64,000 nt of DNA from Candidatus Poribacteria bacterium (GCA_965215265.1 OZ244048.1:992001-1056000), one strand, 5' to 3'; counted from the first letter of the stretch, positions 330-16,858 are shown. Made by a program: numbers and translations. The notes: a model not told the origin generated them from the sequence alone.

Positions 330-528
330 ATAAGTAAGCTCGATACTGCCTTTGAGGACAAACACAAGGAGGCAGTTACGGAACTACTGCGGCTAAAAAC
401 CATCTCGTCTACGACAAGACGTGATGGACAAGCCCAAATTGATAAAGAAGTGTCACGGGTAGAAACGATTGACACCCTTCCTCACCAAGCAATTTGAGGA
501 AATCAGTGACGTTGTAGGTGAGGAATAA
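330..528 (+). pseudogene. Remnant of a dynamin-like gene 3' end
   Basis: 412-535 nearly duplicates the 3' end of the 2058..4169 gene (acaagacgtgatgg...caatttgaggaaatcagtga...taaattctga) with an indel; no intact upstream frame. Confidence 0.7.
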
Positions 529-797
529 ATTCTGATGGAACATTACCGAGCGGTGGTGTGTGGAGCTTAGGAAACACGCAATATCGCATGTTAACTTTAT
601 TTTAACCTAATACCGCATAATGCCTCTAATCGGGGTTATACGGATATAAGAAAGGAAATCAATTGTGAATATGAAAATTACTGACCAGCTTTTGACAAAG
701 CCATTGACGACATCAACCCAGACGATGCCAAAAGGGAGTTTAGCTGATTTCTTCCGTTTTGCCTCGCCTGAAACCTCGCCACCTTAAGGAGATTAAA

Positions 798-1913: not shown

Positions 1914-2057
1914 GCAGGAAACAACATAGGGTATACGGAGATCTGCGGCGGTTTGAAGTTTCTGAATATAGATGTAAAAGATTAGACCAATCATGCCGTT
2001 ACAGACGCGTAGATGAACACATTAATCTAAGCTACTCCCCAGTTGAGGAGGATTAAA

Positions 2058-4169
2058 ATGTCACAAGAACGAACAGAGAAAGCCATCCAGGCACTCCAAA
2101 ACACGGCGGTATTGATTGGTAAATCTCAATCGCATCCGGTTGTCATTGCTGATGAGGAAGTCATCCCCGGTTTAGGATTAGACAATGATGCCGGTCTGTT
2201 GTTGGACAGTGTGGATTCGCTAAGAACATCCCAGCTACAAATTGCTTGTATAGGCAGGGCAAATAGCGGCAAGAGCACCCTAATTGAGGCGTTCGTAAAC
2301 AAGGAGATAGTTCAGGTACGGATAGTGCCCACCACTGGTGTGATTACCCGCATTGTTGGCGGCCCTGATTCTGATAAAGTCCGGCTCGTTGAAGGCGGGC
2401 GCGAGCGCGTTATTAGTCTAGAAGAATTCAATGATAAGTATTACCTCACAGAGAAAGAAGTCAATTCCATAGATGCCGGAGATCCTTTCCCTTTGCCCGA
2501 ACACATGGCAAAAGTTGATCACGCAACGCTGCAAATAGACTCGCCTTTCTTGAGACAAGGTATTTCGTTGGTTGATACACTCGGTTTTCAGGCGGGTGCT
2601 AAAGCTAAGATAATTACCAACAATTTTATTGACCGCGCAGATGTTATCTTTCTGGTACTCAATACCCGTGCTCTGCTTGATGCCTCCGAATTAGAATTAG
2701 TGAAAGAGATAGTAGGCAAGTGCACTGGTGATTCTACAAAGATGAGAAATATTTTCTTTGTTGCCAACAATTTCGCACTTGACGATGCAGAGAAACTATC
2801 TGTGGAAGAGACGTTGTTACGCCGTTTGAAACCTTACTTCACCGACGCGTCCGGGCAGTTTGATAAATCCCTCTACGATCGTCGTGTGTTTATAGTAGAC
2901 GCTAAGGCTGCCAGAGCCGTTAGACTCACGGGAGAATCATCAGGCGATGTGCTGGAAAAAACGGGCTTCTCGGCACTGAATAACGAAGTTCAGCAACTGT
3001 TTCGCGATAACGAAAATATCTCCCTCATCTTAGCAGGTGCAAGTCGGCGTGCAGCGTCCGCCGTTCAGAACGCACGAGGCACCATTGAAACTAAGAAAGT
3101 AGCCATCTTTCTAACCGAAGAAGATTGGAAAACAGCCGAAGCAGGTTTTAAAGAGCAACTGGATATAGCGCAAAAGAAAAGAGACGACACCGAAGCCACC
3201 ATTGTCAAATTCTTGAATGGGGCGAAAGAGAAATGCACCTTTCATTTTGAGCGCTATGCTACGGATTACTTTTTTGATGATCCGACTAGGGCTCGTACGG
3301 AGGAAAAGTGGCGTGCCCGATGGACAGAAGCATACACATCTACCGGAGTAGTCGGATTATTCGATATTGTAAAGGCCTCCTTTTCCAAAAACAGCCGGGC
3401 AGAATTGGAGGAAAAATTAGGTGTCGCAATCAAGAAAGTCTTTGATAACCTGTTTACCGGGTGGCAAAAAGCGTTTACGACATATCTAGAGGAGGATGAG
3501 GAACTGAAGACTTTGACAGGCGAACTTGAAGTGGAGCTCAAGGACTTCTCGGTAAAGGTCAATGAACTTCAGCGAACGATCACGAACAAGCCCACTGAGC
3601 CCGTTACGGATTTAGGCGAAAATAGAGAAAAAAAATTGCTACAGGCTTGCATAAGTATTCTGACACTTGATCTCAACCAGACAGTAGGACCGCTCATGCA
3701 GAGCAGCTGGAAGGCTACCCTAATACGTACATTGGCTCACGCTATAGGCCCAATCGTGGCAACACTAATAGCTGGGTTATTCGCTACGGGTCCTATAGCA
3801 GTCGCGGTAGGAATTGCCGTGTTAATAGCTGAAACCATTGCTGTGCTTTTGTGGGACCACTCTGTATTTGAGGCAAAACTCGCCAACCGCGTCGGTGAAG
3901 AATTAAGAAAGAAGATAATGCTAGCCATGCCTGATATAAAGTACGCGTTACATAACAAAATAGATGAAACCTTCAAGGACCGTTTGGCTAAGGTCTCACA
4001 ACGCCTGACTGCAGAAATTGATGAAGTAAAGCGTATATACGACACTTCAGTTGAGACAAGACGTGATGGGCAAGCCCAAATTGATAAAGAGGTGTCACGG
4101 TTAGAAGCTATTGACACCCTTCTCACCAAGCAATTTGAGGAAATCAGTGAGGTCGTGGGTGACGAATAA
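2058..4169 (+). CDS. Bacterial dynamin-like GTPase, full length
   Basis: G1 GRANSGKST, G2 PTT, G3 DTLG, G4-like ANNF; helical stalk with a hydrophobic paddle (IVATLIAGLFATGPIAVAVGIAVLI); RBS gaggag before ATG 2058. Confidence 0.85.
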   Translation: MSQERTEKAIQALQNTAVLIGKSQSHPVVIADEEVIPGLGLDNDAGLLLDSVDSLRTSQLQIACIGRANSGKSTLIEAFVNKEIVQVRIVPTTGVITRIVGGPDSDKVRLVEGGRERVISLEEFNDKYYLTEKEVNSIDAGDPFPLPEHMAKVDHATLQIDSPFLRQGISLVDTLGFQAGAKAKIITNNFIDRADVIFLVLNTRALLDASELELVKEIVGKCTGDSTKMRNIFFVANNFALDDAEKLSVEETLLRRLKPYFTDASGQFDKSLYDRRVFIVDAKAARAVRLTGESSGDVLEKTGFSALNNEVQQLFRDNENISLILAGASRRAASAVQNARGTIETKKVAIFLTEEDWKTAEAGFKEQLDIAQKKRDDTEATIVKFLNGAKEKCTFHFERYATDYFFDDPTRARTEEKWRARWTEAYTSTGVVGLFDIVKASFSKNSRAELEEKLGVAIKKVFDNLFTGWQKAFTTYLEEDEELKTLTGELEVELKDFSVKVNELQRTITNKPTEPVTDLGENREKKLLQACISILTLDLNQTVGPLMQSSWKATLIRTLAHAIGPIVATLIAGLFATGPIAVAVGIAVLIAETIAVLLWDHSVFEAKLANRVGEELRKKIMLAMPDIKYALHNKIDETFKDRLAKVSQRLTAEIDEVKRIYDTSVETRRDGQAQIDKEVSRLEAIDTLLTKQFEEISEVVGDE

Positions 4170-4262
4170 ATTCTGAGCGATTAGAACATTACCGAGGTGT
4201 GTGGAGCTTCTCTTCGCGGACGGGCGAAGCACGCCTTGCTTAAATTTAAGGAGCTAACTGCA

Positions 4263-4535
4263 ATGAAAAACATGTTTAGAACCTTAGCTTTACTGATGGT
4301 AAGCTTACTTGCCGTTTGCATGATTGGCTGTGACATGGAAGAGTACTCAAAGGGTATAGAGGTGAAGACGAAGTTCTCAAGATGGTCTATTTTATACTTT
4401 GCAGCAGTCGGCGGCTACCTCCTCTTCAAAGTAATTACCTCTCTGCATAAGTTTACAAAATCGAGCAAGACAAGGAGAGTGGAATTGTCAACGACCCGAA
4501 TGGCCAAACGGCAGTATCCGCCTCCTGAAGTCTAA
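4263..4535 (+). CDS. Small putative lipoprotein/membrane protein
   Basis: RBS aaggag; lipobox-like MIGC; second hydrophobic segment; signal peptide nearly identical to that of 59281..59937. Confidence 0.5.
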   Translation: MKNMFRTLALLMVSLLAVCMIGCDMEEYSKGIEVKTKFSRWSILYFAAVGGYLLFKVITSLHKFTKSSKTRRVELSTTRMAKRQYPPPEV

Positions 4536-4881
4536 CAGCATCATTATTTTACTGATTGTCGTGAAACTTAGTAGAATTCACACAAGTAAGTCGCCTTTCG
4601 GTGATTGAGCTAGCAAGGCAAGGGGGAGGCACTCGAGCACTGCGTGCCGGTGCAGCCGCCTTCAACAGAATAAGGAGATTGAACTACACACACGCGATGT
4701 CGTGGAGAGACCTGGATTGGGCTTGTCAACCTATTAGCTCTTCAATTCCTTGTAAACAAGGGGGGGCAAGCGTTCGAGTGTTTAATACTTAACACCCGTT
4801 ATATTACTGGTTTGGATGCTCCGGGTGTTAAACTACTGGCGGTTCGAAATACAAAGAGGTCAATTAAGGGGGTGATTATTT

Positions 4882-5007
4882 ATGGTTCCTGATGGTGGTC
4901 TTCCTGGTAATGCTGGTGGTGAGGGTTTTGGTTGTCTGGGCACTTTCTTGTTTGTTGTTGGTGTGATTCTTTTGATTGTCTTGCTTACGGTCTTAGGTGT
5001 GTCTTGA
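4882..5007 (+). CDS. Small single-TM peptide (41 aa)
   Basis: MVPDGGLPGNAGGEGFGCLGTFLFVVGVILLIVLLTVLGVS; purine-rich aagggggtg upstream. Confidence 0.35.
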   Translation: MVPDGGLPGNAGGEGFGCLGTFLFVVGVILLIVLLTVLGVS

Positions 5008-5279
5008 TACCCTTTCTCGTTTCGATGGCTCACGTGGGCTTTTTGACGCTTTGTTAACGCTCTTTCTTGCATTTCCCTTTTTTGTTGGTGGCTCACGTGG
5101 GCACCCTGCTGGCTCATGTGGCATCTTAAGGTGTCTCATTTCATGCTCTCTTGGCTGTGCGGTCGCATCGCGACCGTTCATTATGGGAAGCGATGAGTCA
5201 GTGCGTCTACAGGAAAGTGCTGACAGATGCAGAGATACAAGCACGTTTAGACCGTTGCTTAAGGAGAAGGCGAACGCAC

Positions 5280-5512
5280 CACTCGACTGTGCTGGAGCAG
5301 ACTGCAAAGCGATGGCAAGAAGGTATCACTGCGACTGAGGACTTGTCCCGAGAGTAGTTCTACGTCTCTCGGGTTCGTGCACGGACGCATTGGGGGTTGC
5401 GGACGCGTCTGAACAATAAGTTTGGAGCGTGTCTTCTCCGCGCGTTCCTGAATCAATGTTTAGGACACCCCTTAGAAGCCAGGAGATGAAAGGAAAACAT
5501 GATGAACATTAG
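5280..5512 (+). repeat. ~230-bp cassette linker repeated at ~13047-13279
   Basis: Near-identical from ctcgactgtgctggagcagactgc to ggaaaacatgatgaacatta; the last part (caggagatgaaaggaaaacatgatgaacattaga) also precedes 8149. Confidence 0.85.
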
Positions 5513-6301
5513 AATTGTCCCAGAAGGAATGGTGCTCATCCCCGGCGGCACCTTCCAGATGGGCAGCAACGATAACGATGCTGAGGCCTGGGATGAAGAA
5601 CAGCCTGTGCATACGGTGCATGTGGACGCGTTCTACATGGACACGCACGAAGTGACGAACGCCGAGTATCAAAGTTTTCTGCTGGCGAATCCCGAGTGGC
5701 AGAAGGGCATCTTCCGGATTTCCTCCACATTGATTATTACCTAGTGGATTGGAACTGGGACGGTAATAACTATCGTCCGGGTAAGGGGGACCATCCTGTG
5801 GAGAGTATGTCGTGGTATGGTGCGATGGCGTATGCTGCGTGGGCAGGTAAGCGTCTTCCAACGGAGGCGGAGTGGGAGTATGCGGCACGCGGTGGGTTAG
5901 TTGGTAAGAAATACCCGTGGGGAGACACGATTACGCCGAACGATGCGAACTACGGTAAGAATGTAGGCGGTACAAAGGCTGTGGGGAGTTATGCTGCGAA
6001 CGGGTATGGGCTGTTCGACATGGCAGGCAACGTGCCAGAGTGGTGTCTGGATGCGTATAATGTGGATTTCTATTCTCAGTCTCCGTCTCGGAATCCGCTG
6101 AGTGGTGTGTCTGGCAGTACGCTCGCGAATCTGGATGAGATTGTAGATAACTATATAATTATTAGGTCTGATCGCGTGTTGCGCGGCGGTAGCTGGGCCA
6201 CTAATTCACGCTACCTGCGCGCCGCGGCTCGCGGCGGGAATGCCCCGACGTTCACGGACTACGACATCGGGTTCCGGTGTGCGAGGGCTGTAACCCCTTA
6301 A
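5499..6301 (+). pseudogene. FGE-sulfatase/CLec-fold protein copy 1, frameshifted near 5706-5712; DGR-type variable 3' end
   Basis: ORFs 5499..5744 and 5696..6301 are the two halves; cagaagggcatcttccggat is 1 nt shorter than cagaagacgcagattccggat in paralogs; RLPTEAEWE and GFRC present. Confidence 0.8.
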
Positions 6302-6323
6302 ATCTTTAACCCTTTACCCCTTC

Positions 6324-6341
6324 CGAGCTGCGCGCAGCTCG
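6324..6341 (+). promoter_or_regulatory. GC-rich hairpin after the variable region (candidate DGR target-recognition hairpin); also 7231-7248 and 12674-12695
   Basis: Perfect palindrome cgagctgcgcgcagctcg after the conserved tail taaatctttaaccctttaccccttc. Confidence 0.55.
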
Positions 6342-6383
6342 AGTCGCGACACGAAGAATTTGAACAAAGGAGAATTTATCGTA

Positions 6384-7208
6384 ATGATTCGTACCGAAAC
6401 GCAGACACCAATTGTCCCAGAAGGAATGGTGCCCATCCCCGGCGGCATCTTCCAGATGGGCAGCAACGATGCTGATGCCTGGGATGACGAGCAGTGGGAT
6501 GACGAGCAGCCTGCGCATCCGGTGTTTATGGACACGTTCTACATGGACACGCACGAGGTGACGAATCTGGAATACAAACGTTTTGTGCTGGCGAACCCAC
6601 AGTGGCAGAAGACGCTGATTCCGGATGCACTCCAAAGTGTTTTTTACCTAAAACATTGGAGCGGTAATAACTATCCTTCGGGTGAGGCGAACCATCCGGT
6701 GGTATATGTGTCGTGGTATGCGGCGATGGCATATTCCGCGTGGGCAGGTAAACGTCTTCCGACGGAGGCAGAGTGGGAGAAAGCGGCACGGGCACGCGGT
6801 GGACGATCAGGGTTAAAGTATCCGTGGGGGAATACAATCTCCTCTGCGCGTGCGAACTACGATGATAATGTAGGGGATACGCGTCCTGTGGGGAGTTATG
6901 CGTCGAACGGGTATGGGCTGTATGATATGGCGGGGAACGTGTGGGAGTGGTGCCTGGATGAGTATGATGCGGATTTTTATTCTGCGTCTCCGTCTAGTAA
7001 TCCGCTGAGTGGTGTGTCTGGCAGTATGCTCGCGAATCTGGATGAGATTGTAGATGACTATACAAATATTAAGTCTCGTCGCGTGCTGCGTGGCGGGGGT
7101 TGGCTCGATTTTTCACGCGACCTGCGTGTCGCCGCTCGCTCCAAGAATACGCCAACGCTCACGAGCTCCGGCGTCGGGTTCCGGTGTGCGAGGGCTGTAA
7201 CCCCTTAA
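6384..7208 (+). CDS. FGE-sulfatase/CLec-fold protein copy 2 (putative DGR target)
   Basis: FQMGS, HEVTN, HPVVYVSW, RLPTEAEWEKAAR, DMAGNVWEW, RGG.W...GFRC; no catalytic FGE cysteine pair. Confidence 0.9.
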   Translation: MIRTETQTPIVPEGMVPIPGGIFQMGSNDADAWDDEQWDDEQPAHPVFMDTFYMDTHEVTNLEYKRFVLANPQWQKTLIPDALQSVFYLKHWSGNNYPSGEANHPVVYVSWYAAMAYSAWAGKRLPTEAEWEKAARARGGRSGLKYPWGNTISSARANYDDNVGDTRPVGSYASNGYGLYDMAGNVWEWCLDEYDADFYSASPSSNPLSGVSGSMLANLDEIVDDYTNIKSRRVLRGGGWLDFSRDLRVAARSKNTPTLTSSGVGFRCARAVTP

Positions 7209-7290
7209 ATCTTTAACCCTTTACCCCTTCCGAGCTGCGCGCAGCTCGAGTCGCGACACGAAAAATTTGAACAAAGGAGAATTTATCGTA

Positions 7291-8139
7291 ATGATTCGTA
7301 CCGAAACTCATATTGACATCGCGACTCGATTAGACGATATCGCGGTTTTGATTGGAGCAGAACAAGATAAACCCATTACGCTACACACAGGCGACACCGT
7401 GGAGAGACCTGGACTGGGCCTGTCAACCCACTCGACCGTGCTGGAGCAGACTGCAAAGCGATGGCAAAAAGGTATCACCAACATCCCCGTCGTCGGCTCC
7501 GTTTCTGTCGGTAAATCGACGCTCCTGAATGGCTTGTTGGACACGGACTTACCTGCAGGGAAAGGTGCCGTGACGGGGATAATCCTGGAACTCACGGCTG
7601 AAGCGTTTGACGACTTTAGAGTCTTTTATACGGATGGGACGGAAAAGACGATGACTGCCGAAGCATATCGAGACTTTAGTTGCGTATACACAAGAGACCC
7701 TTTCGTAGGCGGTGGGCCGTTTAGGCTCCCGGCGCGTTTGCAAACTGTTCAGTATGCGCGTTTAGGCAGGCTGCGCGGTTTACCGGAAAAAGGGCTCGTG
7801 TTCATTGATACCCTCGGTTTCAATGCGGGAGGTGCCGCCGCGGCGGTGACGCGCGGCTATCTCAGCAATGCGGATATCGTGATAATGGTTCTCAACAGTA
7901 ACCAACTCTTTACAGAGACAGATGTTGAGATGCTCCGGGATATCGTTGCCGGTGGCATTGAAAGAGAGGGCGTGGAAGACGCGTCGATTTTCTTCGTTAT
8001 CAACACTTTCGCTCAGGATACCGATGCGGATAAAGAGGAAGCGCTGAAGCAGGTGTCAGCGAAACTGGAAGGGCTCGTTCCTCCTGAAAAGAGAGACAAT
8101 CGCATTTTCTTGGTAGATGCGTGGACAGCCAGGAGATGA
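7291..8139 (+). CDS. Dynamin-like GTPase domain only (no stalk)
   Basis: GSVSVGKST, DTLG, FFVINTF; collinear with the N-half of 2058..4169; stops at a cassette junction. Confidence 0.75.
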   Translation: MIRTETHIDIATRLDDIAVLIGAEQDKPITLHTGDTVERPGLGLSTHSTVLEQTAKRWQKGITNIPVVGSVSVGKSTLLNGLLDTDLPAGKGAVTGIILELTAEAFDDFRVFYTDGTEKTMTAEAYRDFSCVYTRDPFVGGGPFRLPARLQTVQYARLGRLRGLPEKGLVFIDTLGFNAGGAAAAVTRGYLSNADIVIMVLNSNQLFTETDVEMLRDIVAGGIEREGVEDASIFFVINTFAQDTDADKEEALKQVSAKLEGLVPPEKRDNRIFLVDAWTARR

Positions 8140-8148
8140 AAGGAAAAC

Positions 8149-8988
8149 ATGATGAACATTAGAATTGTCCCAGAAGGAATGGTGCTCATCCCCGGCGGCA
8201 CCTTCCAGATGGGCAGCAAGGATGCCGAGGCCTTAAATGACGAGCAGCCTACGCATACGGTGTATGTGGACGCGTTCTACGACGAGCAGCCTGTGCATAC
8301 GGTGTATGTGGACGCGTTCTACATGGACACGCACGAAGTGACGAACGCCGAGTATAAAAGTTTTCTGCTGGCAAACCCGCAGTGGCAGAAGACGCAGATT
8401 CCGGATGCCCTCCATAATGGTCGTTATCTAAGCCATTGGGACGGTAATAACTATCCAGTGGGTGAGGCGGACCATCCCGTGACGTATGTGTCGTGGTATG
8501 GTGCGATGGCGTATGCTGCGTGGGCGGGTAAGCGTCTTCCAACGGAGGCGGAGTGGGAGAAAGCGGCACGCGGGGGGTTAGTTGATAAGAGATATCCGTG
8601 GGGGGACACGATTACGCCGAACGATGCGAACTACGGTAAGAATGTAGGCGGTACAACGGCTGTGGGGAGTTATGCTGCGAACGGGTATGGGCTGTTCGAC
8701 ATGGCAGGCAACGTGTCAGAGTGGTGTCTGGATGAGTGGGATGCGGATTTTTATTCTCAGTCTCCGTCTCGGAATCCGCTGAGTGGTGTGTCTGGCAGTA
8801 CACTCGCGAATCTGGCTGAGATTGTAGATAACTATACAAATATTGAGTCTGATCGCGTGTTGCGTGGCGGTAGTTGGTACTGTGCTTCACGACTCCTGCG
8901 TGTCACCTTTCGCCCCGAGATTACACCAACGTTCACGCTCTACCCCGCCGGCCTCGGGTTCCGGTGTGCGAGGGCTGTAACCCCTTAA
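8149..8988 (+). CDS. FGE-sulfatase/CLec-fold protein copy 3 (putative DGR target)
   Basis: Same motifs; 42-nt in-frame tandem duplication at 8239-8322. Confidence 0.9.
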   Translation: MMNIRIVPEGMVLIPGGTFQMGSKDAEALNDEQPTHTVYVDAFYDEQPVHTVYVDAFYMDTHEVTNAEYKSFLLANPQWQKTQIPDALHNGRYLSHWDGNNYPVGEADHPVTYVSWYGAMAYAAWAGKRLPTEAEWEKAARGGLVDKRYPWGDTITPNDANYGKNVGGTTAVGSYAANGYGLFDMAGNVSEWCLDEWDADFYSQSPSRNPLSGVSGSTLANLAEIVDNYTNIESDRVLRGGSWYCASRLLRVTFRPEITPTFTLYPAGLGFRCARAVTP

Positions 8989-9080
8989 ATCTTTACCCCT
9001 TTACCCCTTCCGAGCCGTATCCGGAGCGAATGGCACATAGAAGAATTTGAACGATGACTTAAAAAGGAGATTTTATCATA

Positions 9081-9857
9081 ATGAACAGTGCCGAAACTCA
9101 TATTGACAGAGAAGAAACAACCGAACCGCAGACACCAATTGTCCCAGAAGGAATGGTGCTCATCCCCGCAGGCGAGTTCCAGATGGGCAACGACGATCCT
9201 GTGCATACAGTGTATGTAGACGCGTTCTATATGGACACGCACGAAGTGACGAACGCTGAGTATCAAACTTTTGTGCTGGCGAACCCGCAGTGGCAGAAGA
9301 CGCTGATTCCGGATGTTCTCCACAATGGTGATTACCTAAACCATTGGGACGGTAATAACTATCCAGTGGGTATGGGGGACCATCCTGTGACGTATGTGTC
9401 GTGGTATGCGGCGATGGCATATTCCGCGTGGGCAGGGAAGCGTCTTCCAACGGAGGCAGAGTGGAAGAAAGCGGCCGGTGATCTGGCAGTCCCACGTCTG
9501 GGCGATGCGAACTATGCAGCCGGTACAACGGCTGTGGGGAGTTATGCTGCGAACGGGTATGGGCTATATGATATGGCAGGCAACGTGTGGGAGTGGTGTC
9601 TGGATGAGTGGGATGCAGATTTTTATTCTCAGTCTCCGTCTAGTAATCCGCTGAGTGGTGTGTCTGGCAGTATGCTCGCGAATCTGGATGAGATTGTAGA
9701 TGACTATACAAATATTAAGTCTCGTCGCGTGTCGTGTGGCGGGCCTTTGTACGCTGCTCCGTGGGGCCTGCGTGTCGCCAATCTCGGCAGGTATTCTCCA
9801 CCGGCGTTCACGCTCGACTGCTTCGGGTTCCGGTGTGCGCGGGCTGTTACTCCTTAA
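9081..9857 (+). CDS. FGE-sulfatase/CLec-fold protein copy 4 (putative DGR target)
   Basis: Same motifs; RGGSW degenerate (CGGPL); YPWG segment replaced. Confidence 0.85.
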   Translation: MNSAETHIDREETTEPQTPIVPEGMVLIPAGEFQMGNDDPVHTVYVDAFYMDTHEVTNAEYQTFVLANPQWQKTLIPDVLHNGDYLNHWDGNNYPVGMGDHPVTYVSWYAAMAYSAWAGKRLPTEAEWKKAAGDLAVPRLGDANYAAGTTAVGSYAANGYGLYDMAGNVWEWCLDEWDADFYSQSPSSNPLSGVSGSMLANLDEIVDDYTNIKSRRVSCGGPLYAAPWGLRVANLGRYSPPAFTLDCFGFRCARAVTP

Positions 9858-9925
9858 ATCTTCAACCCTTTACCCCTTCCGAGCTGCATGCAGATGGGCT
9901 TGCGACCTAAGGAGAATTTATCGTA

Positions 9926-11605
9926 ATGAATAGGGCAAAAACTTATATTGATATCGCGTATCTATTCAACGATATCAGGGATGCCCAAAGTGCTCTCGCT
10001 GAAGTACGTGCGACAGTGCCGGATGTGCTGAACACGTTTGACAGCCTCGTAGAAAAGATAGCCAGCCATACCTCTACGCTCTTTCAAAACGAATTCGCCC
10101 TAAAACTGGGAGACGGAGCGTTTTGGCGTGAAAAATGGACAAAAGGTGTATGGTCCCCCATCCGTTGGGCTAGTCTTTGGGCTAGTCTTGTGGGATTTGG
10201 TGTTACTAAGGGAGACGTAAACTTAATGATTCAACTGGCCCTAGAACAGGTGGTTCAGTTTAAACTAGATGCGTGGGTGGCAGCACTTCCCGACAAATTA
10301 ACGGAGCACCTCGATGCCCCTAAGGCACAGCTCCTCGTTAGAGATTTGGACTTGGCATTTGATGAGTTCCAGGTGCGTTTGAAGCGGATCGATTTACACG
10401 TGAAAGGCATTGGCAAGATCAATGCCGTCCAGAGTGATGAGATTGCGAATATAAAGCAGCTCATCTCCGACACTATAGGCTGCGGTTTTGCTATACCCGT
10501 AAGTTCTGCTATAGTTGCTGACTCGATTGTGGAGAATACTGTGTACATGCCTACGGCCCGCCTCATGGCCAATCACATCGCGGATGAAGCCAGGAAACAT
10601 TTCAACGCTACGGGTGCTTATATCGGTGCAGAAATTGAGAGAATAATGGTTGAGAATTTCGCTGTGCCTCGTCAAAAGCTAGCGGCGGTGCTTGAGGATG
10701 AAGTAACTAGGACAGAGCACCGTTTGGAGACGCTGGCGAATATCGTCCACGGCGAACTGATAAAAAAGGCGCGATTAGATTTAGAACCAGAAAAACCAAC
10801 CGAGCAGGAGATACGAGCACATCCGCCGGAGACACTAGTTGTTCCGAAAGGGATGGTGCTGATTCCCGCCGGCGAATTCCTGATGGGCAGCGATGCCGAG
10901 AATGACGAACAGCCTGTGCATCCGGTGTATGTAGACGCGTTCTATATGGATACGCACGAAGTGACGAACGCGGAGTATCAAACTTTTGTGCTGGCAAACC
11001 CGCAGTGGCAGAAGACGCAGATTCCGGATGCCCTCCATAATGGTCGTTATCTAAGCCATTGGGACGGTAATAACTATCCAGTGGGTGAGGCGGACCATCC
11101 CGTGACGTATGTGTCGTGGTATGGTGCAATGGCGTATGCCGCGTGGGCGGGTAAGCGTCTTCCAACGGAGGCGGAGTGGGAGAAAGCGGCACGCGGGGGG
11201 TTAGTTGATAAGAGATATCCGTGGGGGGACACGATTACGCCGAACGATGCGAACTACGGTAAGAATGTAGGCGGTACGACTTCTGTGTGCAGTTATGCTG
11301 CAAACGGGTATGGGCTGTCCGACATGGCAGGCAACGCTTGGGAATGGTGTCTGGATGAGTGGGATGCGGATTTTTATTCTCAGTCTCCGTCTCGGAATCC
11401 GCTGAGTGGTGTGTCTGGCAGTACACTCGCGAATCTGGATGAGATTGTAGATAAATATATAAATATTAAGTCTTCTCGCGTGTTGCACGGCGGTAGTTGG
11501 CTCAATCTTCCACGGGTCGTGCGTGTCGCCAATCGCTTCGGGTATACCCCGTCGTTCGCGCTCACCAACGTCGGTTTCCGGTGCGCGAGGGCTGTAACCC
11601 CTTAA
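9926..11605 (+). CDS. Fusion of dynamin-like stalk region and FGE/CLec domain (copy 5)
   Basis: N-terminal ~290 aa align by eye with 14847..16061 (VRATVPDVLNTFDSL/ARAKVPAVLEAFDNL; DLDLAFDEF/DLDRALDEF); C-terminal FGE domain near-identical to copy 3 except the variable end. Confidence 0.85.
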   Translation: MNRAKTYIDIAYLFNDIRDAQSALAEVRATVPDVLNTFDSLVEKIASHTSTLFQNEFALKLGDGAFWREKWTKGVWSPIRWASLWASLVGFGVTKGDVNLMIQLALEQVVQFKLDAWVAALPDKLTEHLDAPKAQLLVRDLDLAFDEFQVRLKRIDLHVKGIGKINAVQSDEIANIKQLISDTIGCGFAIPVSSAIVADSIVENTVYMPTARLMANHIADEARKHFNATGAYIGAEIERIMVENFAVPRQKLAAVLEDEVTRTEHRLETLANIVHGELIKKARLDLEPEKPTEQEIRAHPPETLVVPKGMVLIPAGEFLMGSDAENDEQPVHPVYVDAFYMDTHEVTNAEYQTFVLANPQWQKTQIPDALHNGRYLSHWDGNNYPVGEADHPVTYVSWYGAMAYAAWAGKRLPTEAEWEKAARGGLVDKRYPWGDTITPNDANYGKNVGGTTSVCSYAANGYGLSDMAGNAWEWCLDEWDADFYSQSPSRNPLSGVSGSTLANLDEIVDKYINIKSSRVLHGGSWLNLPRVVRVANRFGYTPSFALTNVGFRCARAVTP

Positions 11606-11696
11606 ATCTTTAACCCTTTATCCCTTCCGAGCCGTATCCGGAGCGAATGGCACATAGAAGAATTTGAACGATGACTTAAAAAGGAGATTTATCAGA

Positions 11697-12653
11697 ATGA
11701 GTCGTACCGAAACTCATATTGACAGAGAAGAACCAACCGAACCGCAGACACCAATTGTCCCAGAAGGAATGGTGCTCATCCCCGCGGGCGACTTCCAGAT
11801 GGGCAGCAACGATTATGATAACGAGCAGCCTGTGCATACGGTGTATGTGGACGCGTTCTATATGGATACGCACGAGGTGACGAACGCCGAGTATAAAACT
11901 TTTGTGCTGGCGAACCCGCAGTGGCAGAAGACGCGGATTCCGGATGTCTTCCACAATCGTTATTACCTATTCTATTGGGACTGGGACGGTAATAACTATC
12001 CAGTGGGTGAGGCGGACCATCCTGTGACGTGGGTGTCGTGGTATGCGGCGATGGCATATTCCGCGTGGGTAGGTAAGCGTCTCCCAACGGAGGCGGAATG
12101 GGAGAAAGCGGCGCGCGGTGGTAATGTAGGGGATACCCGTCCTGTCGGGAGTTATGCTGCGAACGGGTATGGGCTTGATATGGCCGGCAACGTGTGGGAG
12201 TGGTGTCTGGATGCGTATGATTGGGTGTCGTGGTATGCGGCGATGGCATATTCCGCGTGGGTAGGTAAGCGTCTCCCAACGGAGGCGGAATGGGAGAAAG
12301 CGGCGCGCGGTGGTAATGTAGGGGATACCCGTCCTGTCGGGAGTTATGCTGCGAACGGGTATGGGCTTGATATGGCCGGCAACGTGTGGGAGTGGTGTCT
12401 GGATGCGTATGATGCGGATTTTTATTCTGCGTCTCCGTCTAGTAATCCGCTGAGTGGTGTGTCTGGCAGTATGCTCGCGAATCTGGATGAGATTGTATCG
12501 GACTATACAAATATTAAGTCTAGTCGCGCGCTGCGTGGCGGGAGTTGGAACACTGATACCCGTCCCCTGCGCGCCGCTGATCGCACCGGGTGTACGCCGA
12601 TGTTCACGAGCAACGGCCTCGGGTTCCGGTGTGCGAGGGCTGTAACCCCTTAA
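11697..12653 (+). CDS. FGE-sulfatase/CLec-fold protein copy 6 (putative DGR target) with a 64-aa internal duplication
   Basis: Same motifs; exact 192-nt tandem repeat 12030-12221/12222-12413; YPWG segment deleted. Confidence 0.85.
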   Translation: MSRTETHIDREEPTEPQTPIVPEGMVLIPAGDFQMGSNDYDNEQPVHTVYVDAFYMDTHEVTNAEYKTFVLANPQWQKTRIPDVFHNRYYLFYWDWDGNNYPVGEADHPVTWVSWYAAMAYSAWVGKRLPTEAEWEKAARGGNVGDTRPVGSYAANGYGLDMAGNVWEWCLDAYDWVSWYAAMAYSAWVGKRLPTEAEWEKAARGGNVGDTRPVGSYAANGYGLDMAGNVWEWCLDAYDADFYSASPSSNPLSGVSGSMLANLDEIVSDYTNIKSSRALRGGSWNTDTRPLRAADRTGCTPMFTSNGLGFRCARAVTP

Positions 12654-12745
12654 ATCTTTAACCCTTTACCCCTTCCGAGCTGCAGGCAGCTCGGACCGAG
12701 AATGCAATGAAAAGTCCCGAGAAGAAAACACGGAAAAATCCCTAG

Positions 12746-12918
12746 AAAACTCGAGATTCGACCAAACTCAATGGCTCACTAGGCAGCGGCGCAATCGCCT
12801 CACCGGTGAGTCCTCTGACTATACTGAAATTGATCGTGAAAGGATTAATAAGAGTTTTCGGAAAGACTAATAAGTAAGTTAAGTGAGGTTTTGTCAATGA
12901 ATGAAAGCAAAAATCCCT
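12746..12918 (+). repeat. Leader block also present, rearranged, at ~86-310
   Basis: aaactcgagattcg..caaactcaatgg...aggattaataagagttttcggaaagactaa and taagtaagttaagtgaggttttgtcaatgaatgaaagcaaaaatccc occur at both sites. Confidence 0.8.
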
Positions 12919-13124
12919 CTGAAACGCATATTGACATCGCGACTCGATTAGACGATATCGCGGTTTTGATTGGAGCAGAACAGGATAAAGCCATTACGCT
13001 ACACACAGGCGACATCGTGGAGAGACCTGGACTGGGCTTGTTAACCTACTCGACTGTGCTGGAGCAGACTGCAAAGCGATGGCAAGAAGGTATCACTGCG
13101 ACTGAGGACTTGTCCCGAGAGTAG
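12897..13124 (+). pseudogene. Dynamin-like N-terminal leader fragment
   Basis: ETHIDIATRLDDIAVLIG...QTAKRW nearly identical to the 7291 leader, then stop. Confidence 0.65.
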
Positions 13125-13265
13125 TTCTACGTCTCTCGGGTTCGTGCGCGGACGCATTGGGGGTTGCGGACGCGTCTGAACAATAAGTTTGGAGCGTGTC
13201 TTCTCTGCGCGTGCCTGAATCAATGTTTAGGACACCCCTTAGAAGACAGGAGATGAAAGGAAAAC

Positions 13266-13706
13266 ATGATGAACATTATAGCAGAGCATCACAAAGTCAT
13301 TGCAGAGTGTGACAAAGTCATTGCCACGGCAGACGGCCATCGTGGCGAGCTTAACAAAGCACTTGCCCTGGTACACTACGGGCGCGGCAGAGCGAAGTTA
13401 ATCTTGCATAAAACCAAAGACGCGATATGGAATTCTGACCCAGACATTAAATACGCGATAGCCGCATTGGATTTTGACGCAGGCATTAAATACGCGATAG
13501 CCGATTTTGACACAGCCATTCACATCAACCCAAACGCGGCCGAGGCATACTACTATCGCGGCAAGGCGCGTTTAGCCTTGGATCACCTCGACTCCGCGAT
13601 AGCCGATTTTGACACAGCCATTCACATCAACCCAAAATATGTCGAGGCCCACCACTTGCGCGCAGAGGCGAAGTTAATGAGGGAGCGGGTTCCGGCGATG
13701 GTGTAG
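13266..13706 (+). CDS. TPR repeat protein
   Basis: Repeated AIADFDTAIHINP..AEAY..RG TPR units; same RBS and start (MMNI) as FGE copies 1 and 3. Confidence 0.8.
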   Translation: MMNIIAEHHKVIAECDKVIATADGHRGELNKALALVHYGRGRAKLILHKTKDAIWNSDPDIKYAIAALDFDAGIKYAIADFDTAIHINPNAAEAYYYRGKARLALDHLDSAIADFDTAIHINPKYVEAHHLRAEAKLMRERVPAMV

Positions 13707-13921
13707 AAAAGACGCGATTAGCCCGCATAGAATCTACGCTCCGTTCGCAATTCGAGGTGCTGAGTGTGCACGTCTACGGGCGAGTACTGACGGATGCCGA
13801 GATACGAACGCGTATAGAACCGGATCAAAGCAGCAGCGGCGAAAGCAGCGCTGGCTAAGACGAGGATGGCTGCGCAGGTGCGAGCGTGCCGGCGCAGCGG
13901 CTTTCAAGGAGATTTATCAGA

Positions 13922-14764
13922 ATGAGTCGTGTAGAAACTCATATTGACAGAGAAGAAACAACCCAACCGCAGACACCAATTGTCCCAAAAGGAATGGTGC
14001 TCATCCCTGCAGGCAACTTCCAGATGGGCAGCGATGCTGCTGATGCGTGGGATAACGAGCAGCCTGTGCATACGGTGCATGTGGACGCGTTCTATATGGA
14101 TACGCACGAAGTAACGAACGCCGAGTATAAAATTTTTGTGCTGGAGAACCCCAAGTGGCAGCATGTTGCGGATGCACCCGGTGATGATGTTCATCTGGCC
14201 GATTGGATTGGTAAAAATGACTATCCTTGGGGTGAGAGAGACCATCCTGTGACATATGTGTCATGGTATGGTGCAATGGCGTATGCGGCGTGGGCAGGTA
14301 AGCGTCTTCCGACGGAGGCAGAGTGGGAGAAAGCGGCACGCGGGGGGTTAGTTGGTAAGAAATACCCATGGGGGGACACGATAATGCCGAACGATGCGAA
14401 CTATTGGAGCGGCGGCACGGATAAGGATTATGTAGACGGTACAACGGCTGTGGGGAGTTATCCCCCGAACGGATATGGGTTATATGACATGGTCGGCAAC
14501 GTGTCAGAGTGGTGCCTGGATGAGTATAATGAGGATTTCTATTCTGCGTCTCCGTCTAGTAATCCGCTGAGTGGTGTGTCTGGCAGTATGCTCGCGAATC
14601 TGGATGAGATTGTAGATGACTATACAAATATTAAGTCTCGTCGCGTGTCGCGCGGCGGTGGCTGGTGCCTTAATTCATGGTACCTGCGCGCCGCGGAGCG
14701 CGAAGGGACTGCACCGAGTAGGGCCCTCAGCGGTTTCCGGTGTGCACGGGCTGTTACTCCTTAA
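13922..14764 (+). CDS. FGE-sulfatase/CLec-fold protein copy 7 (putative DGR target)
   Basis: Same motifs; shortened variable end. Confidence 0.9.
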   Translation: MSRVETHIDREETTQPQTPIVPKGMVLIPAGNFQMGSDAADAWDNEQPVHTVHVDAFYMDTHEVTNAEYKIFVLENPKWQHVADAPGDDVHLADWIGKNDYPWGERDHPVTYVSWYGAMAYAAWAGKRLPTEAEWEKAARGGLVGKKYPWGDTIMPNDANYWSGGTDKDYVDGTTAVGSYPPNGYGLYDMVGNVSEWCLDEYNEDFYSASPSSNPLSGVSGSMLANLDEIVDDYTNIKSRRVSRGGGWCLNSWYLRAAEREGTAPSRALSGFRCARAVTP

Positions 14765-14846
14765 ATCTTCAACCCTTTACCCCTTCCGAGCTGCATGCAG
14801 ATGGGCTTGCGACACGAAGAATTTGAACAAAGGAGAATTTATCATA

Positions 14847-16061
14847 ATGATTCGTACCGAAACTCATATTGACATCGCGACTCGATTAGACGATATCGCG
14901 GTTTTGATTGGATTAGAACAAGATAAAGCCATTACGCTACACACAGGCGACATCGTGGAGAGACCTGGACTGGGCTTGTCAACCCACTCGACCGTGCTGG
15001 AGCAGACTGCAAAGCGATGGCGAGAAGGTATCACTGCGATTGGGGCCTTGGAACATGCGATGGATAACGGTGTCCTCCGGGCAATAGATGCGGCTTCGCA
15101 GGAGATTGCGCTGAGAAGAAAGGTGCTCGAGATGGGGGCGGCGGCGCGTGAAAGGGCTATCGCGGCCTCGCAAATTTATCTCGCGAAAGCGCGTGCGAAA
15201 GTGCCGGCTGTGCTGGAAGCGTTTGACAACCTCGCAGAAGAGGTGGCGGCACGTGCCGAGACGCGCTTTCAAACGGAAGTGCCGGCTGTGCTGGGAAGAG
15301 CGTATTTGCGTGAAGAGCTGGAAAGAAGGTGGCGTGAAGTAGGGGAAATACTAAAAGCCAGCGTTGAAGAATCTGACGCACGGCACCTCGTCGGCGATTT
15401 GGATCGGGCCCTTGATGAGTTCTGGGCGGTTTTGAAGCGGGGCGATTTACACCTCAAACGCATTCGCCGGATTTATGTCGGCCCGAGTGATGCGACCGCG
15501 AATTGGAAGTGGCTCATCTTCGAAGCTATAGGCCTGGGTCTAGAGGATATCAGTGCTATCAACTTAGGCTATACTGCGGATATCAGTGCTATCAACTTAG
15601 GCTATACTGCGGACTTCCGCTCTTTTCTCAGAGGCGTATTTTTCCTTTGGCCTGAACAGGCATTTTTTTATAGATACGGCGCACAGAGTTTCGCTGCGCA
15701 TCGTGAAAAACTGGAGGCGGCACTTGATGACGAGATAAGTGGCAGAGAGAAACGCTTGCAGACGCTGCGTCAGGCAAACCGTGATGAGACTAACACTCAG
15801 GAAACACAAGCGAGATTAGAGGGCATAGCGTCCGCGCTGCGTTCGCAATGGGAAGCGATGAGTCAGCGCGTCTACGGAAAAGTGCTGACAGATGCAAAGA
15901 TACAAGCACGTTTAGAACCGTTGCTTAAGGAGAAGGCGAACGCATGGCAACGAGAAAAGAGTCGTTCCAGATGGGCGAAACAGAGCGTGAGTAGGCGAGC
16001 GCAGCTGCCCAACGTCCTCTCTATCAAGCACGGACGAAAAAACAGGATGTGGCGATATTGA
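14847..16061 (+). CDS. Dynamin-like protein lacking the GTPase domain (leader joined to stalk)
   Basis: Leader as in 7291 up to RW.EGIT, no P-loop, then a helical region similar to the C-half of 2058..4169. Confidence 0.7.
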   Translation: MIRTETHIDIATRLDDIAVLIGLEQDKAITLHTGDIVERPGLGLSTHSTVLEQTAKRWREGITAIGALEHAMDNGVLRAIDAASQEIALRRKVLEMGAAARERAIAASQIYLAKARAKVPAVLEAFDNLAEEVAARAETRFQTEVPAVLGRAYLREELERRWREVGEILKASVEESDARHLVGDLDRALDEFWAVLKRGDLHLKRIRRIYVGPSDATANWKWLIFEAIGLGLEDISAINLGYTADISAINLGYTADFRSFLRGVFFLWPEQAFFYRYGAQSFAAHREKLEAALDDEISGREKRLQTLRQANRDETNTQETQARLEGIASALRSQWEAMSQRVYGKVLTDAKIQARLEPLLKEKANAWQREKSRSRWAKQSVSRRAQLPNVLSIKHGRKNRMWRY

Positions 16062-16409
16062 TGGCATCCAGGCTGATACAATGAATCTCAACAATGTACA
16101 CGTAGTCTACACTTGGGCAAGACGAGAGGAGGGCAGACAACTGTGAAACTAGTTGGCTGGTTCTTGATAGTACTTGGGTCCGCAGGAGCGTTGGCAGTGC
16201 TGATATGAGGATTTTACAATGATCATGGAATTAGAGTTTTTGCGAAGTTAATATTGCCTAGAGCGTTTTTAGCAGGCTTCTGAAAAAAGTTGAAAAAAAA
16301 AGATTGTGCGAGACTGCAAAACAACGCAATTCCGGCAGTTTACGTTTGAAGAGCCAAACCGTGTAAACTCATTGTGAGCGGAGAGTTCCGTTTTCATAAA
16401 AGTGTTTCA

Positions 16410-16762
16410 ATGATGCCAAAACTCATATTGACATCGCGACTCGATTAGACGATATCGCGGCTTTGATTAGAGCAGAACAAGATAAACCCATTACGCTACA
16501 CACAGGCGACACCGTGGAGAGACCTGGACTGGGCCTATCAACCTACTCGGCCGTGCTAGAGGCGAGTGCACAGCGATGGCGAAAAGGTATCACCACCATA
16601 CCCGTCATCGGCTCGGTTTCTGTCGGTAAATCGACGTTCCTGAATGGCTTGTTGGGGACGGACTTACCAACAAATGGAGGTACAAGGAATCCGCCCTGCT
16701 TTGCAGGGGAAGGGAAGTTCTCCCCGCTTGCGGGGATGAATTCCCATCCTTCTCAAAGATGA
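16410..16762 (+). pseudogene. Truncated dynamin-like gene (leader plus P-loop)
   Basis: GSVSVGKST present; similarity ends at ~16670 beside two GC hairpins; upstream ATGs out of frame. Confidence 0.7.
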
Positions 16763-16858
16763 CAAATGCTCCTTGAACTCACGACTAAACCATTTGATGG
16801 TTCTCAAGTCTTTTTTCTGCAATGAAAAAACCAGAAGAGACGATAGGTGAGGTTCCGA

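What the first reader, a model, noticed from the sequence alone, without database searches (positions are those of the whole stretch)
2058..16762. Dynamin-like GTPase modules interleaved with and fused to hypervariable lectin-fold domains: candidate undescribed adaptive membrane/defence system
Seen: one full dynamin-like gene (2058), a GTPase-only gene (7291), a leader-plus-stalk gene without GTPase (14847), a stalk fused in frame to a variable CLec domain (9926), leader remnants (~4683, 12897, 16410), tail remnants (412, ~5185, ~13740) and a TPR gene, all co-oriented among seven CLec genes. Known: bacterial dynamin-like proteins remodel membranes, often act as pairs, and B. subtilis DynA limits phage spread; DGR CLec domains are ligand binders. 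Inference: diversified binders may co-assemble with dynamin filaments through the shared stalk and give membrane remodelling a tunable specificity. I know of no described system with this pairing.
Basis: partly seen in the sequence, partly recalled or inferred. Interest (0 to 1): 0.85.

Follow-up and report, generated by a model that had tools for sequence, protein, structure and literature searches.

The report
Scrambled dynamin and lectin gene array
A bacterial chromosome region holds one intact dynamin-like GTPase gene, the broken pieces of a second one and seven copies of a hypermutable lectin-fold gene, shuffled together by recombination; whether the dynamins and the lectins work together is open.

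Summary
The array holds one intact dynamin-like protein (BDLP, Dyn1) and seven CLec genes. It also holds a GTPase-only gene, a GTPase-less leader+stalk gene, an in-frame stalk-CLec fusion, and leader and tail remnants.

Most dynamin pieces are fragments of a second BDLP, Dyn2. Dyn2 is full-length in proteins from one 111,151-bp contig of a related organism.

The CLec genes carry DGR variable repeats. These are served in trans by the genome's only DGR reverse transcriptase and template, about 0.41 Mb away. Only the frameshifted CLec1 matches the present template at non-adenine sites; CLec2-5 carry a different shared signature.

Genes in the array start with shared 5' modules placed after a conserved DGR hairpin. 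I read the locus as unequal-recombination scrambling of an Eleos-like (LeoA/LeoBC) dynamin pair by expanding CLec cassettes.

A functional dynamin-CLec link is not excluded. CLec sequence lies within 3 kb of a BDLP in all 4 evaluable genomes of the phylum, as a full gene in 3. Against it, the adjacent CLecs form no dedicated lineage, and no other fusion was found.

No RNA data were available.

The parts
411..525 (+). Tail remnant of a Dyn1-type dynamin gene. It spans two reading frames.
   Evidence: matches P0006 residues 663-700 at 96% and 87% identity; repeat families D16 and D19.
2058..4169 (+). Dyn1: an intact bacterial dynamin-like protein of 703 aa, with a GTPase, a helical stalk, a hydrophobic hairpin and a tail.
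   Evidence: Dynamin_N 56.5 bits. PADLOC LeoBC E 1.7e-15 and LeoA E 2.6e-12; orthologue P0006 at 82% identity.
4663..4734 (+). Dyn2 leader remnant (residues 24-47 only).
   Evidence: 92% identity to P0003; repeat family D11.
5175..5333 (+). A Dyn2 tail remnant followed by a leader-end remnant. It is part of a 231-nt repeat that is 98% identical to 13048-13278.
   Evidence: families D12 and D14..
5499..6301 (+). CLec1: frameshifted by a 1-nt deletion near 5706. Its variable repeat (6172-6284) is the only one in the window that matches the present template repeat at non-adenine sites.
   Evidence: 20/35 adenine and 1/78 other mismatches..
6381..7208 (+). CLec2: an open frame with no signal peptide. 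Variable repeat at 7079-7191.
7291..8139 (+). Dyn2 leader plus GTPase domain. It is cut off where the upstream module of CLec3 begins.
   Evidence: aligns to P0003 residues 1-287; family D7, 8127-8231 is 96% identical to 5477-5581.
8149..8988 (+). CLec3: open frame. Its variable repeat has a 6-nt insertion relative to the template repeat.
9081..9857 (+). CLec4: has an internal deletion. Its variable repeat is degenerate, with 12/78 non-adenine mismatches and gaps.
9926..11605 (+). Chimera of a roughly 20-aa leader stub, a partial Dyn2 stalk lacking the hydrophobic segment and most of the tail, and CLec5. The junction lies near 10830. Variable repeat at 11476-11588.
   Evidence: The junction is bridged by contigs of 3 studies.
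11664..12653 (+). CLec6, carrying a perfect in-frame 192-nt tandem duplication (12030-12413).
   Evidence: family D13..
12897..13121 (+). A leader-only open frame of 74 aa. Its first 10 codons are copied from the small ORF at 138, and it stops right after the GIT junction.
   Evidence: P0137.
13266..13706 (+). TPR gene. It begins with the same 5' module (KENMMNI) as CLec1 and CLec3.
13658..13855 (+). Dyn2 tail remnant, out of frame with the TPR gene.
   Evidence: 82% identity to the last 50 residues of P0004.
13886..14764 (+). CLec7: open frame. Its variable repeat is shortened relative to the template repeat.
   Evidence: only 75 nt align.
14847..16061 (+). Dyn2 leader plus stalk with the GTPase domain precisely deleted. 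It also has further in-frame deletions, an 11-aa duplication and a read-through tail.
   Evidence: 52% identity to P0004 over 431 columns.
16415..16816 (+). Dyn2 leader plus P-loop remnant, truncated after about 90 residues.
   Evidence: 60% identity to P0003 residues 4-113.

Best explanation
**What it is.** A recombination-scrambled gene array built from two ingredients.

1. A pair of paralogous bacterial dynamin-like GTPases of the LeoA/LeoBC (Eleos, formerly 'Dynamins') antiphage type. Dyn1 is intact. Dyn2 is full-length in a related organism but here survives only as pieces.
2. Short CLec (FGE-sulfatase fold) cassettes without signal peptides, drawn from the genome's pool of roughly 40 DGR target domains. 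Each ends in a variable repeat, a conserved 3' sequence and a hairpin. The genome's single DGR, about 0.41 Mb away, serves them in trans.

**How it arose.** Six junctions carry the same module after a CLec stop: hairpin, ribosome-binding site, ATG and a 'TETHID'-type leader. Three other genes share a second 5' module. I infer that unequal homologous recombination between these modules and between the CLec bodies duplicated and deleted segments. That process produced the GTPase-only gene, the GTPase-less gene, the leader-only and tail-only remnants, and one in-frame stalk-CLec chimera.

**What probably still works.** Dyn1 and some of the CLec genes. I read the Dyn2 pieces and the chimera as by-products.

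**Shown versus inferred.** Shown: the domain identities, the fragment map, the shared modules, the trans DGR and the presence of the arrangement in several samples. Inferred: the recombination history and the lack of function of the fragments.
For: - The fragments align collinearly to the full-length P0002/P0003 and together cover leader, GTPase, stalk and tail.
- The Dyn1 orthologue P0006 (82% identity) and P0002-P0004 all report the same longest contig of 111,151 bp. This suggests an ancestral Dyn1+Dyn2 locus.
- Truncation points coincide with repeat boundaries. The GTPase gene ends where the 96%-identical CLec upstream module starts (D7).
- Three leader copies (window 14847 and 12897, and P0004) break at the same 'GIT' position, and the leader-end remnant at 5280-5333 duplicates the 12897 break.
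- Shared 5' modules are shown.
- Signs of decay:
  - CLec1 is frameshifted.
  - CLec6 has a 100%-identical 192-nt duplication.
  - CLec3, CLec4 and CLec7 have indels in their variable repeats.
  - 14847 has extra deletions and a read-through tail.
- The related organism also has truncated forms, P0004 and P0135.
- The window's CLecs are interspersed with CLecs from other loci in a tree: 6 window rows need 4 changes.
- Dyn pieces occur nowhere else in this genome.
- PADLOC gives LeoBC/LeoA matches.
Against: - Every indel in 14847 is in frame, and it stays open for 404 aa.
- Genes in the array keep ribosome-binding sites and start codons.
- Window CLecs show dN/dS of 0.23-0.58 outside the variable repeat, in 15 of 15 pairs. 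That is not neutral decay over their whole history.
- CLec sequence within 3 kb of a BDLP recurs in G004, G014 (12-nt spacing, same strand) and, as a remnant, in G120. The chance expectation is about 4-5.5% per gene in G000.
- The GTPase deletion removes exactly one structural domain and is shared with P0004. A retained GTPase-less isoform would look like this.
Confidence: 0.55

Rival explanations
1. A working, undescribed conflict system. Cytoplasmic DGR-diversified CLec proteins without signal peptides sense an invader. They couple to an Eleos-like dynamin pair that seals or remodels the membrane. The stalk-CLec fusion and the GTPase-less stalk protein act as adaptors that co-assemble through shared leader and stalk helices.
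For: - CLec sequence lies within 3 kb of a BDLP in all 4 evaluable BDLP-bearing genomes of the phylum. This covers three distant BDLP lineages at 26-30% identity. It is a full CLec gene in 3 of the 4 and a decayed remnant in G120. Background is about 4-5.5% per gene.
- In G014 the CLec, which has no signal peptide, starts 12 nt after the BDLP stop.
- Window CLecs lack any N-terminal hydrophobic segment, unlike the dockerin or multi-domain CLecs elsewhere in the genome.
- Distant members of this stalk family are fused to TIR, Hsp70 or DUF4145, and one SIR2-bearing protein gave a short match.
- FGE-sulfatase/CLec domains are proposed sensors in other conflict systems (PMC7159879 and PMC10907252, passages read).
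Against: - In G004 the CLec neighbours carry a signal peptide or a lipobox.
- The G120 orthologue of the G014 BDLP has only a decayed CLec remnant, and three other G120 BDLPs have no CLec within 6 kb or more.
- BDLP-adjacent CLecs do not cluster together.
- The partner Dyn2 is broken in this genome.
- The fusion is unique: one search found 4 proteins, the window's own fusion plus three ordinary dynamin relatives. None of the 10 atypical-length family members scanned has FGE-sulfatase.
- Both gene kinds may simply share variable islands.
Confidence: 0.25
2. A contingency locus. The modular breaks at domain boundaries (leader, GTPase, stalk, tail, CLec) and the shared 5' modules would serve programmed or selected cassette shuffling. 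This would generate new dynamin/CLec combinations, as in antigenic-variation gene families.
For: - Breakpoints recur at the same 'GIT' position in three leader copies, plus a duplicated remnant.
- 14847 and P0004 are mosaic: a stretch of about 57 identical residues is followed by a region whose similarity brings overall identity down to 52%.
- The related organism also carries several variant copies.
Against: - No recombinase was seen: the array ORFs scanned with Pfam and 10 of the large ORFs in 24-64 kb gave no integrase or transposase match.
- Public contigs from three studies show the same arrangement at the unique segments.
- Frameshifted and degenerate copies fit passive decay better.
Confidence: 0.1
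3. An assembly artefact: repeat collapse or mis-joins in a repetitive region created false fusions and fragments.
For: The region is highly repetitive. Short-read contigs break inside it and give many ambiguous joints.
Against: - The unique segments are found with 0 differences in contigs of three studies. These include Dyn1 (1914-4297), the 9926 stalk through its CLec junction (9674/9877-10963) and 15164-16448.
- The genome is a single 4.83-Mb contig.
Confidence: 0.03

Closest known systems
Eleos (formerly 'Dynamins') antiphage system, LeoA + LeoBC
   Same: It is built on two paralogous dynamin-like GTPases. Dyn1 matches the PADLOC LeoBC and LeoA models (E 1.7e-15 and 2.6e-12). The 7291 GTPase matches LeoA at E 2.1e-14. 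Eleos is described as a two-gene dynamin-like antiphage system in bioRxiv 10.1101/2022.12.12.520048 (passages read).
   Different: The matches are distant. The second partner is fragmented here. CLec genes are interleaved, which is not part of the system as described in the passages I read. P0003 itself gave no PADLOC match. No phage test exists.
DGRs with remote or multiple CLec targets (for example the Thiohalocapsa PB-PSB1 loci)
   Same: - The CLec C-terminal variable repeats show adenine-biased mismatches to a template repeat.
- Diversification in trans by an RT and template elsewhere in the genome is proposed in PMC10907252 (passages read).
- Tandem CLec domains also occur there.
   Different: - Here one RT and one template face about 40 variable repeats, which fall into three sequence classes.
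- The N-terminal partner is a dynamin stalk. The word 'dynamin' occurs 0 times in PMC10907252 and in PMC7159879.
GTPase-centric conflict systems with HSP70 (Kaur et al. 2020, PMC7159879)
   Same: Paralogous GTPases linked to HSP70 and to DGR/FGS components are a stated theme of that paper (passages read). BDLPs in G014 and G120 sit beside Hsp70-like genes, and family members are fused to Hsp70.
   Different: Those systems use other TRAFAC GTPases, and dynamin is not mentioned in the paper. No HSP70, MoxR or tubulin gene was identified in the array. Its ORFs of 95 aa or more were scanned with Pfam; two small ORFs gave no match.
Structurally characterised bacterial dynamin-like proteins (Nostoc BDLP, B. 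subtilis DynA, Campylobacter DLP1/2; names recalled, not from a call)
   Same: The domain order matches: N-terminal helix, GTPase, helical stalk, hydrophobic hairpin and C-terminal helix.
   Different: Similarity exists only at family level. The fold search of the 9926 stalk model gave 0 matches at E <= 0.001; 5owv_C ranked 19th at E 0.74.

Membership tests
Bacterial dynamin-like protein (Dyn1, 2058-4169) | Dynamin_N GTPase domain scoring above the Pfam cut-off | tested here: met
   56.5 bits against a cut-off of 27.
Bacterial dynamin-like protein (Dyn1, 2058-4169) | Helical stalk domain (PF21808) | tested here: inconclusive
   25.9 bits, below the 28.3 cut-off. The precomputed Pfam column does list PF21808 for the same protein.
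Bacterial dynamin-like protein (Dyn1, 2058-4169) | GTP hydrolysis and membrane binding | not testable with these tools
   The sequence shows a P-loop and a hydrophobic hairpin.
Dynamin stalk (N-terminus of 9926) | Homology to the stalk region of full-length Dynamin_N proteins | tested here: met
   P0002 at E 1.6e-53 and P0003 at E 1.7e-51; aligns to P0003 from about residue 363 onwards.
Dynamin stalk (N-terminus of 9926) | Stalk-like fold | tested here: inconclusive
   an all-helical model with mean pLDDT 67; 0 PDB matches at E <= 0.001.
Eleos/Dynamins defence system | Matches to both the LeoA and LeoBC models | tested here: met
   Dyn1 matches LeoBC at 1.7e-15 and LeoA at 2.6e-12; the 7291 GTPase matches LeoA at 2.1e-14. 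The matches are distant.
Eleos/Dynamins defence system | Two intact partner genes | tested here: not met
   the second dynamin exists only as fragments in this genome.
Eleos/Dynamins defence system | Protection against phage | not testable with these tools
DGR target (the seven CLec genes) | C-terminal variable repeat homologous to a template repeat, with mismatches concentrated at template adenines | tested here: met
   13-26 of 21-35 adenines mismatch, against 1-12 of 54-78 other positions.
DGR target (the seven CLec genes) | RT and template repeat present in the genome | tested here: met
   one RT at C1:1420096-1420737, with the template repeat at C1:1421034-1421146. Both lie outside the window.
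DGR target (the seven CLec genes) | Conserved 3' element and hairpin after the variable repeat | tested here: met
   the element is conserved across window and non-window targets. The hairpin is altered after CLec3, CLec4, CLec5 and CLec7.
DGR target (the seven CLec genes) | Ongoing diversification by the present template repeat | tested here: inconclusive
   CLec1 has 1 non-adenine mismatch. CLec2-5 share six non-adenine differences at template positions 13-55 (CLec3 and CLec5 carry five and four of the six). Population data were contigs only.
Complete DGR cassette within the finding's coordinates | RT and template repeat in cis | tested here: not met
   neither lies in the window.

The most novel reading that the evidence does not exclude
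Some members of this phylum (homologues' source names say Candidatus Poribacteria) couple an Eleos-like dynamin pair to cytoplasmic, DGR-diversified CLec sensors. This would be a GTPase-centred immune module with a hypermutable recognition subunit. Stalk-CLec and GTPase-less stalk proteins would act as adaptors. Recombination at domain boundaries would keep generating new dynamin/CLec combinations.
Probability: 0.2. Interest if true: 0.8.

Novelty: new variant of a known kind. Interest (0 to 1): 0.45.

Why it matters
If the dynamin-CLec link is functional, it would be the first case I could find of a DGR-diversified binder attached to a membrane-remodelling GTPase. A search for 'diversity-generating retroelement' plus 'dynamin' found 2 papers, and neither title nor abstract start concerns such a pairing. 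The word 'dynamin' occurs 0 times in PMC10907252 and PMC7159879. It would also suggest what the poorly understood Eleos-type dynamins respond to.

Even under the ordinary reading, the locus is useful. It shows how an expanding DGR target family can invade and dismantle a neighbouring gene pair. The genome as a whole, with one RT, one template and about 40 variable repeats in three classes, is an unusually large trans-acting DGR network.

Tried and rejected
**Retrieving the related 111,151-bp contig.** This failed by every route.
- The genome-contig scan with P0003 found no relative.
- The metagenome-contig scan with alignment A2 found none.
- As a proxy I searched CLec7 homologues for that contig length. 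None of the 120 rows listed, out of 1965 hits, had it. That is not conclusive.

**Synteny.** Genes from -20 kb to +30 kb around the array start were searched against the M29 neighbourhoods of G001 and G120. Only M29 itself matched, so no empty site could be defined.

**Promoter and terminator scan.** Counts equalled shuffled expectation.

**Fold search of the 9926 stalk model.** There were no significant matches.

**RNA.** No RNA holder was listed.

**Laid runs.** All were contigs, so they say nothing on expression or on adenine-site variation within populations. The many joints lie in repeats with short sides, and I did not use them.

**Short BDLP contigs.** Five contigs of 2.6-4.4 kb (G097, G109, G153, G173, G174) show no CLec, but their flanks are too short to count.

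**Rows dropped**
- The tree used 39 of 54 G000 tblastn hits, those of 230 aa or more and above 45% identity. Frameshifted CLec1 was therefore excluded. Four BDLP-adjacent CLecs from G004 and G014 were added. Two of those sit on long branches, so their placement is unsure.
- The dN/dS analysis excluded CLec1 and the last 48 codons of each gene.

**Not run.** Complex prediction was not run, because I do not claim binding.

**Closed or unseen.** Supplements of the papers were not seen; the domain tables of PMC7159879 and PMC10907252 could list a dynamin association that the main texts do not.

Full report
**What is there**

The window is G000:C1:992001-1056000 of a single-contig 4.83-Mb genome. 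Source names attached to 2 of the 120 listed CLec homologues say 'Candidatus Poribacteria'. I take that as the likely phylum, not as a direct identification.

Pfam matches are:
- Dynamin_N plus a sub-threshold bacterial dynamin helical domain in 2058-4169 (Dyn1, 703 aa).
- Dynamin_N alone in 7291-8139.
- FGE-sulfatase (the CLec fold) in seven genes, ending at 6301, 7208, 8988, 9857, 11605, 12653 and 14764.
- CLec preceded by 300 unassigned residues in 9926-11605.
- TPR in 13266-13706.
- A P-loop stub in 16463-16762.
- Nothing in 14847-16061.

The region holds 20 direct-repeat families, including 7-copy families of 300 nt.

**The lectin genes are DGR targets served from afar**

- The genome has one reverse transcriptase match. 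It lies about 0.41 Mb from the array, next to a CLec gene and an accessory-size ORF.
- A 113-nt adenine-rich template repeat lies at C1:1421034-1421146.
- About 40 sites genome-wide align to it, with mismatches concentrated at template adenines. In the window the figures are 13-26 of 21-35 adenines against 1-12 of 54-78 other positions.
- All targets share a conserved sequence and a hairpin after the stop codon.
- The 36 well-aligned variable repeats fall into three classes by their non-adenine bases.
  - Class I agrees with the present template (0-4 differences). In the window only CLec1 belongs to it.
  - Class II shares six differences at template positions 13-55. It includes window CLec2 and CLec4 with all six, CLec3 and CLec5 with five and four, and CLec6 in part.
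  - Class III has 19-20 differences.
- No second template was found. At least the 5' half of the CLec2-5 repeats has therefore not been rewritten from the present template since the classes split.
- CLec3, CLec4 and CLec7 also carry indels in the repeat.
- CLec1 is frameshifted.
- CLec6 holds a perfect 192-nt tandem duplication.
- Outside the repeat, the six open CLecs show dN/dS of 0.23-0.58 in all 15 pairs. That indicates moderate constraint over their history.

**The dynamin pieces are fragments of a second dynamin**

- The 9926 N-terminus found only four proteins among 5.8 billion: itself, P0002 (691 aa), P0003 (722 aa) and P0004 (436 aa). P0002 and P0003 carry Dynamin_N. All three reported one 111,151-bp contig.
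- The alignment and tblastn map place the window's pieces on P0003 as follows.
  - 7291-8139 corresponds to residues 1-287 (leader plus GTPase). It ends where a 96%-identical CLec upstream module begins (D7).
  - 9926-10840 is a short leader stub joined to residues of about 363-683. It lacks the hydrophobic segment and most of the tail, and runs in frame into CLec5.
  - 14847-16061 is leader plus stalk with the GTPase domain removed at the same 'GIT' junction as P0004. It has further in-frame deletions, an 11-aa duplication and a 45-aa read-through tail.
  - Leader-only, tail-only and P-loop remnants make up the rest.
- The related organism also has truncated forms, P0004 and P0135.
- None of these dynamin sequences occurs elsewhere in the genome.

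**How the array was built (inferred)**

- After six of the seven CLec stops the same module follows: hairpin, about 25 nt, AAGGAGA, ATG and a 'TETHID'-type leader. This holds whether the next gene is a CLec, the GTPase gene, the fusion or the GTPase-less gene.
- A second module ('KENMMNI') precedes CLec1, CLec3 and the TPR gene.
- The 12897 leader ORF borrows its first ten codons from a small ORF at 138.
- The M29 peptidase and Dyn1 share their ribosome-binding site and first five codons (D20).
- Unequal recombination among such modules explains the duplications, the truncations at module borders and the chimera.
- In a tree of 43 CLec domains, the six window rows are interspersed with CLecs from other loci and need 4 changes. 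The BDLP-adjacent CLecs of other genomes do not join them. Two of those rows sit on long branches.

**Is it real DNA?**

Contigs from three studies reproduce the unique segments with no differences. They include the stalk-to-CLec junction.

**Does the pairing recur?**

- In 176 genomes of the phylum, full Dynamin_N matches occur in 8 at E <= 1e-9. G014, at 1.3e-9 in the order-level search of 151 genomes, makes a ninth.
- The same-genus genome G001 has none.
- Flanks could be read in four genomes.
  - G000 is this window.
  - In G004 a 723-aa BDLP lies between two dockerin-CLec genes, an orphan variable repeat 75 nt past its stop, and a further CLec.
  - In G014 an 856-aa BDLP is followed after 12 nt by a 300-aa CLec with no signal peptide.
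  - In G120 the 82%-identical orthologue has only a decayed CLec C-terminal remnant 1.2 kb away. Three other BDLPs in the same island have none within 6 kb or more.
- These BDLPs are 25-30% identical across lineages.
- In G000 a 2.1-kb gene has a 3.8% (1.5 kb) to 5.5% (3 kb) chance of lying that close to a CLec locus.
- The other genomes hold 19-43 FGE-sulfatase matches each.
- The recurrence is therefore more than uniform chance predicts. Three points limit it: the genomes are related, both gene kinds may favour variable islands, and the G004 neighbours are secreted or lipoprotein CLecs.
- The G004 neighbours have adenine-biased repeats against that genome's own template: 16-19 of 31-33 adenines against 7-9 of 83-86 other positions.

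**Family context**

- A leader+stalk profile found only 45 proteins among 1.84 billion representatives.
- Of the 10 atypical-length members scanned, none has FGE-sulfatase. Three carry Hsp70, one TIR, one DUF4145, and one SIR2/AAA/TPR protein matched over a short stretch. P0009 also carries Hsp70.
- Dyn1 and the 7291 GTPase match the PADLOC LeoBC and LeoA models. Together these form the two-gene Eleos ('Dynamins') antiphage system (bioRxiv 10.1101/2022.12.12.520048, passages read).
- FGE-sulfatase domains linked to DGRs are proposed sensors in other conflict systems (PMC7159879 and PMC10907252, passages read). Neither text mentions dynamin.

**Verdict**

My best reading (0.55) is an Eleos-like dynamin pair whose second member has been dismantled by recombination with expanding, trans-diversified CLec cassettes. 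On that reading the fusion and the split genes are by-products.

A functional dynamin-CLec module remains possible (0.25). It is supported mainly by recurrent adjacency and by the tight G014 pair.

The structure model of the stalk was all-helical, of modest confidence, and matched nothing significantly. No RNA evidence could be obtained.

Noticed in passing
Whole genome G000. RT at C1:1420096-1420737, template repeat at C1:1421034-1421146 (locus L001).: One DGR reverse transcriptase and one template repeat face about 40 variable repeats spread over roughly 20 loci. By their non-adenine bases the repeats fall into three classes. Only about a third agree with the present template, and no second template was found.
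   Followed up: partly
window 12030-12413: A perfect (100% identical) in-frame 192-nt tandem duplication inside CLec6. It looks like a very recent event.
   Followed up: partly
window 775-821 and 2035-2081: The M29 aminopeptidase gene and Dyn1 share their ribosome-binding site and first five codons (MSQER). The shared stretch is 47 nt at 79% identity, with 16 exact bases at the start codon.
   Followed up: no
window 138-323 and 12747-12925: A small ORF begins MNESKNP. Its upstream region and first ten codons are duplicated in front of the leader-only ORF at 12897.
   Followed up: partly
L016/L017 (G120:C1:1674000-1711000): An island holds four dynamin-like genes, including a tandem pair, together with Hsp70-like ATPase genes and repeated small genes. 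It resembles the GTPase plus HSP70 conflict systems of PMC7159879. G120 has 31 FGE-sulfatase matches, but no DGR-type RT was found with the G000 RT as query.
   Followed up: partly
L015:1905-2018 and L015:4492-4607 (G004): Orphan variable-repeat cassettes of about 115 nt, with the conserved 3' element but no CLec body. One lies 75 nt after the BDLP stop.
   Followed up: partly
proteins P0163, P0175, P0144, P0151, P0158: Distant members of this dynamin stalk family are fused to TIR (C-terminal), DUF4145 or Hsp70 (N-terminal). This points to an immune or conflict role for the family.
   Followed up: partly
window 28312-31656 and 32092-33267: A UvrD-type helicase with an inserted RNase_T exonuclease domain, and a lone type I restriction specificity (HsdS-like) gene. 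No adjacent methylase or nuclease was among the ORFs scanned.
   Followed up: no
window 4197-4535: A small ORF directly after Dyn1 has a lipoprotein-like signal (hydrophobic stretch ending in a Cys) and no family match.
   Followed up: no
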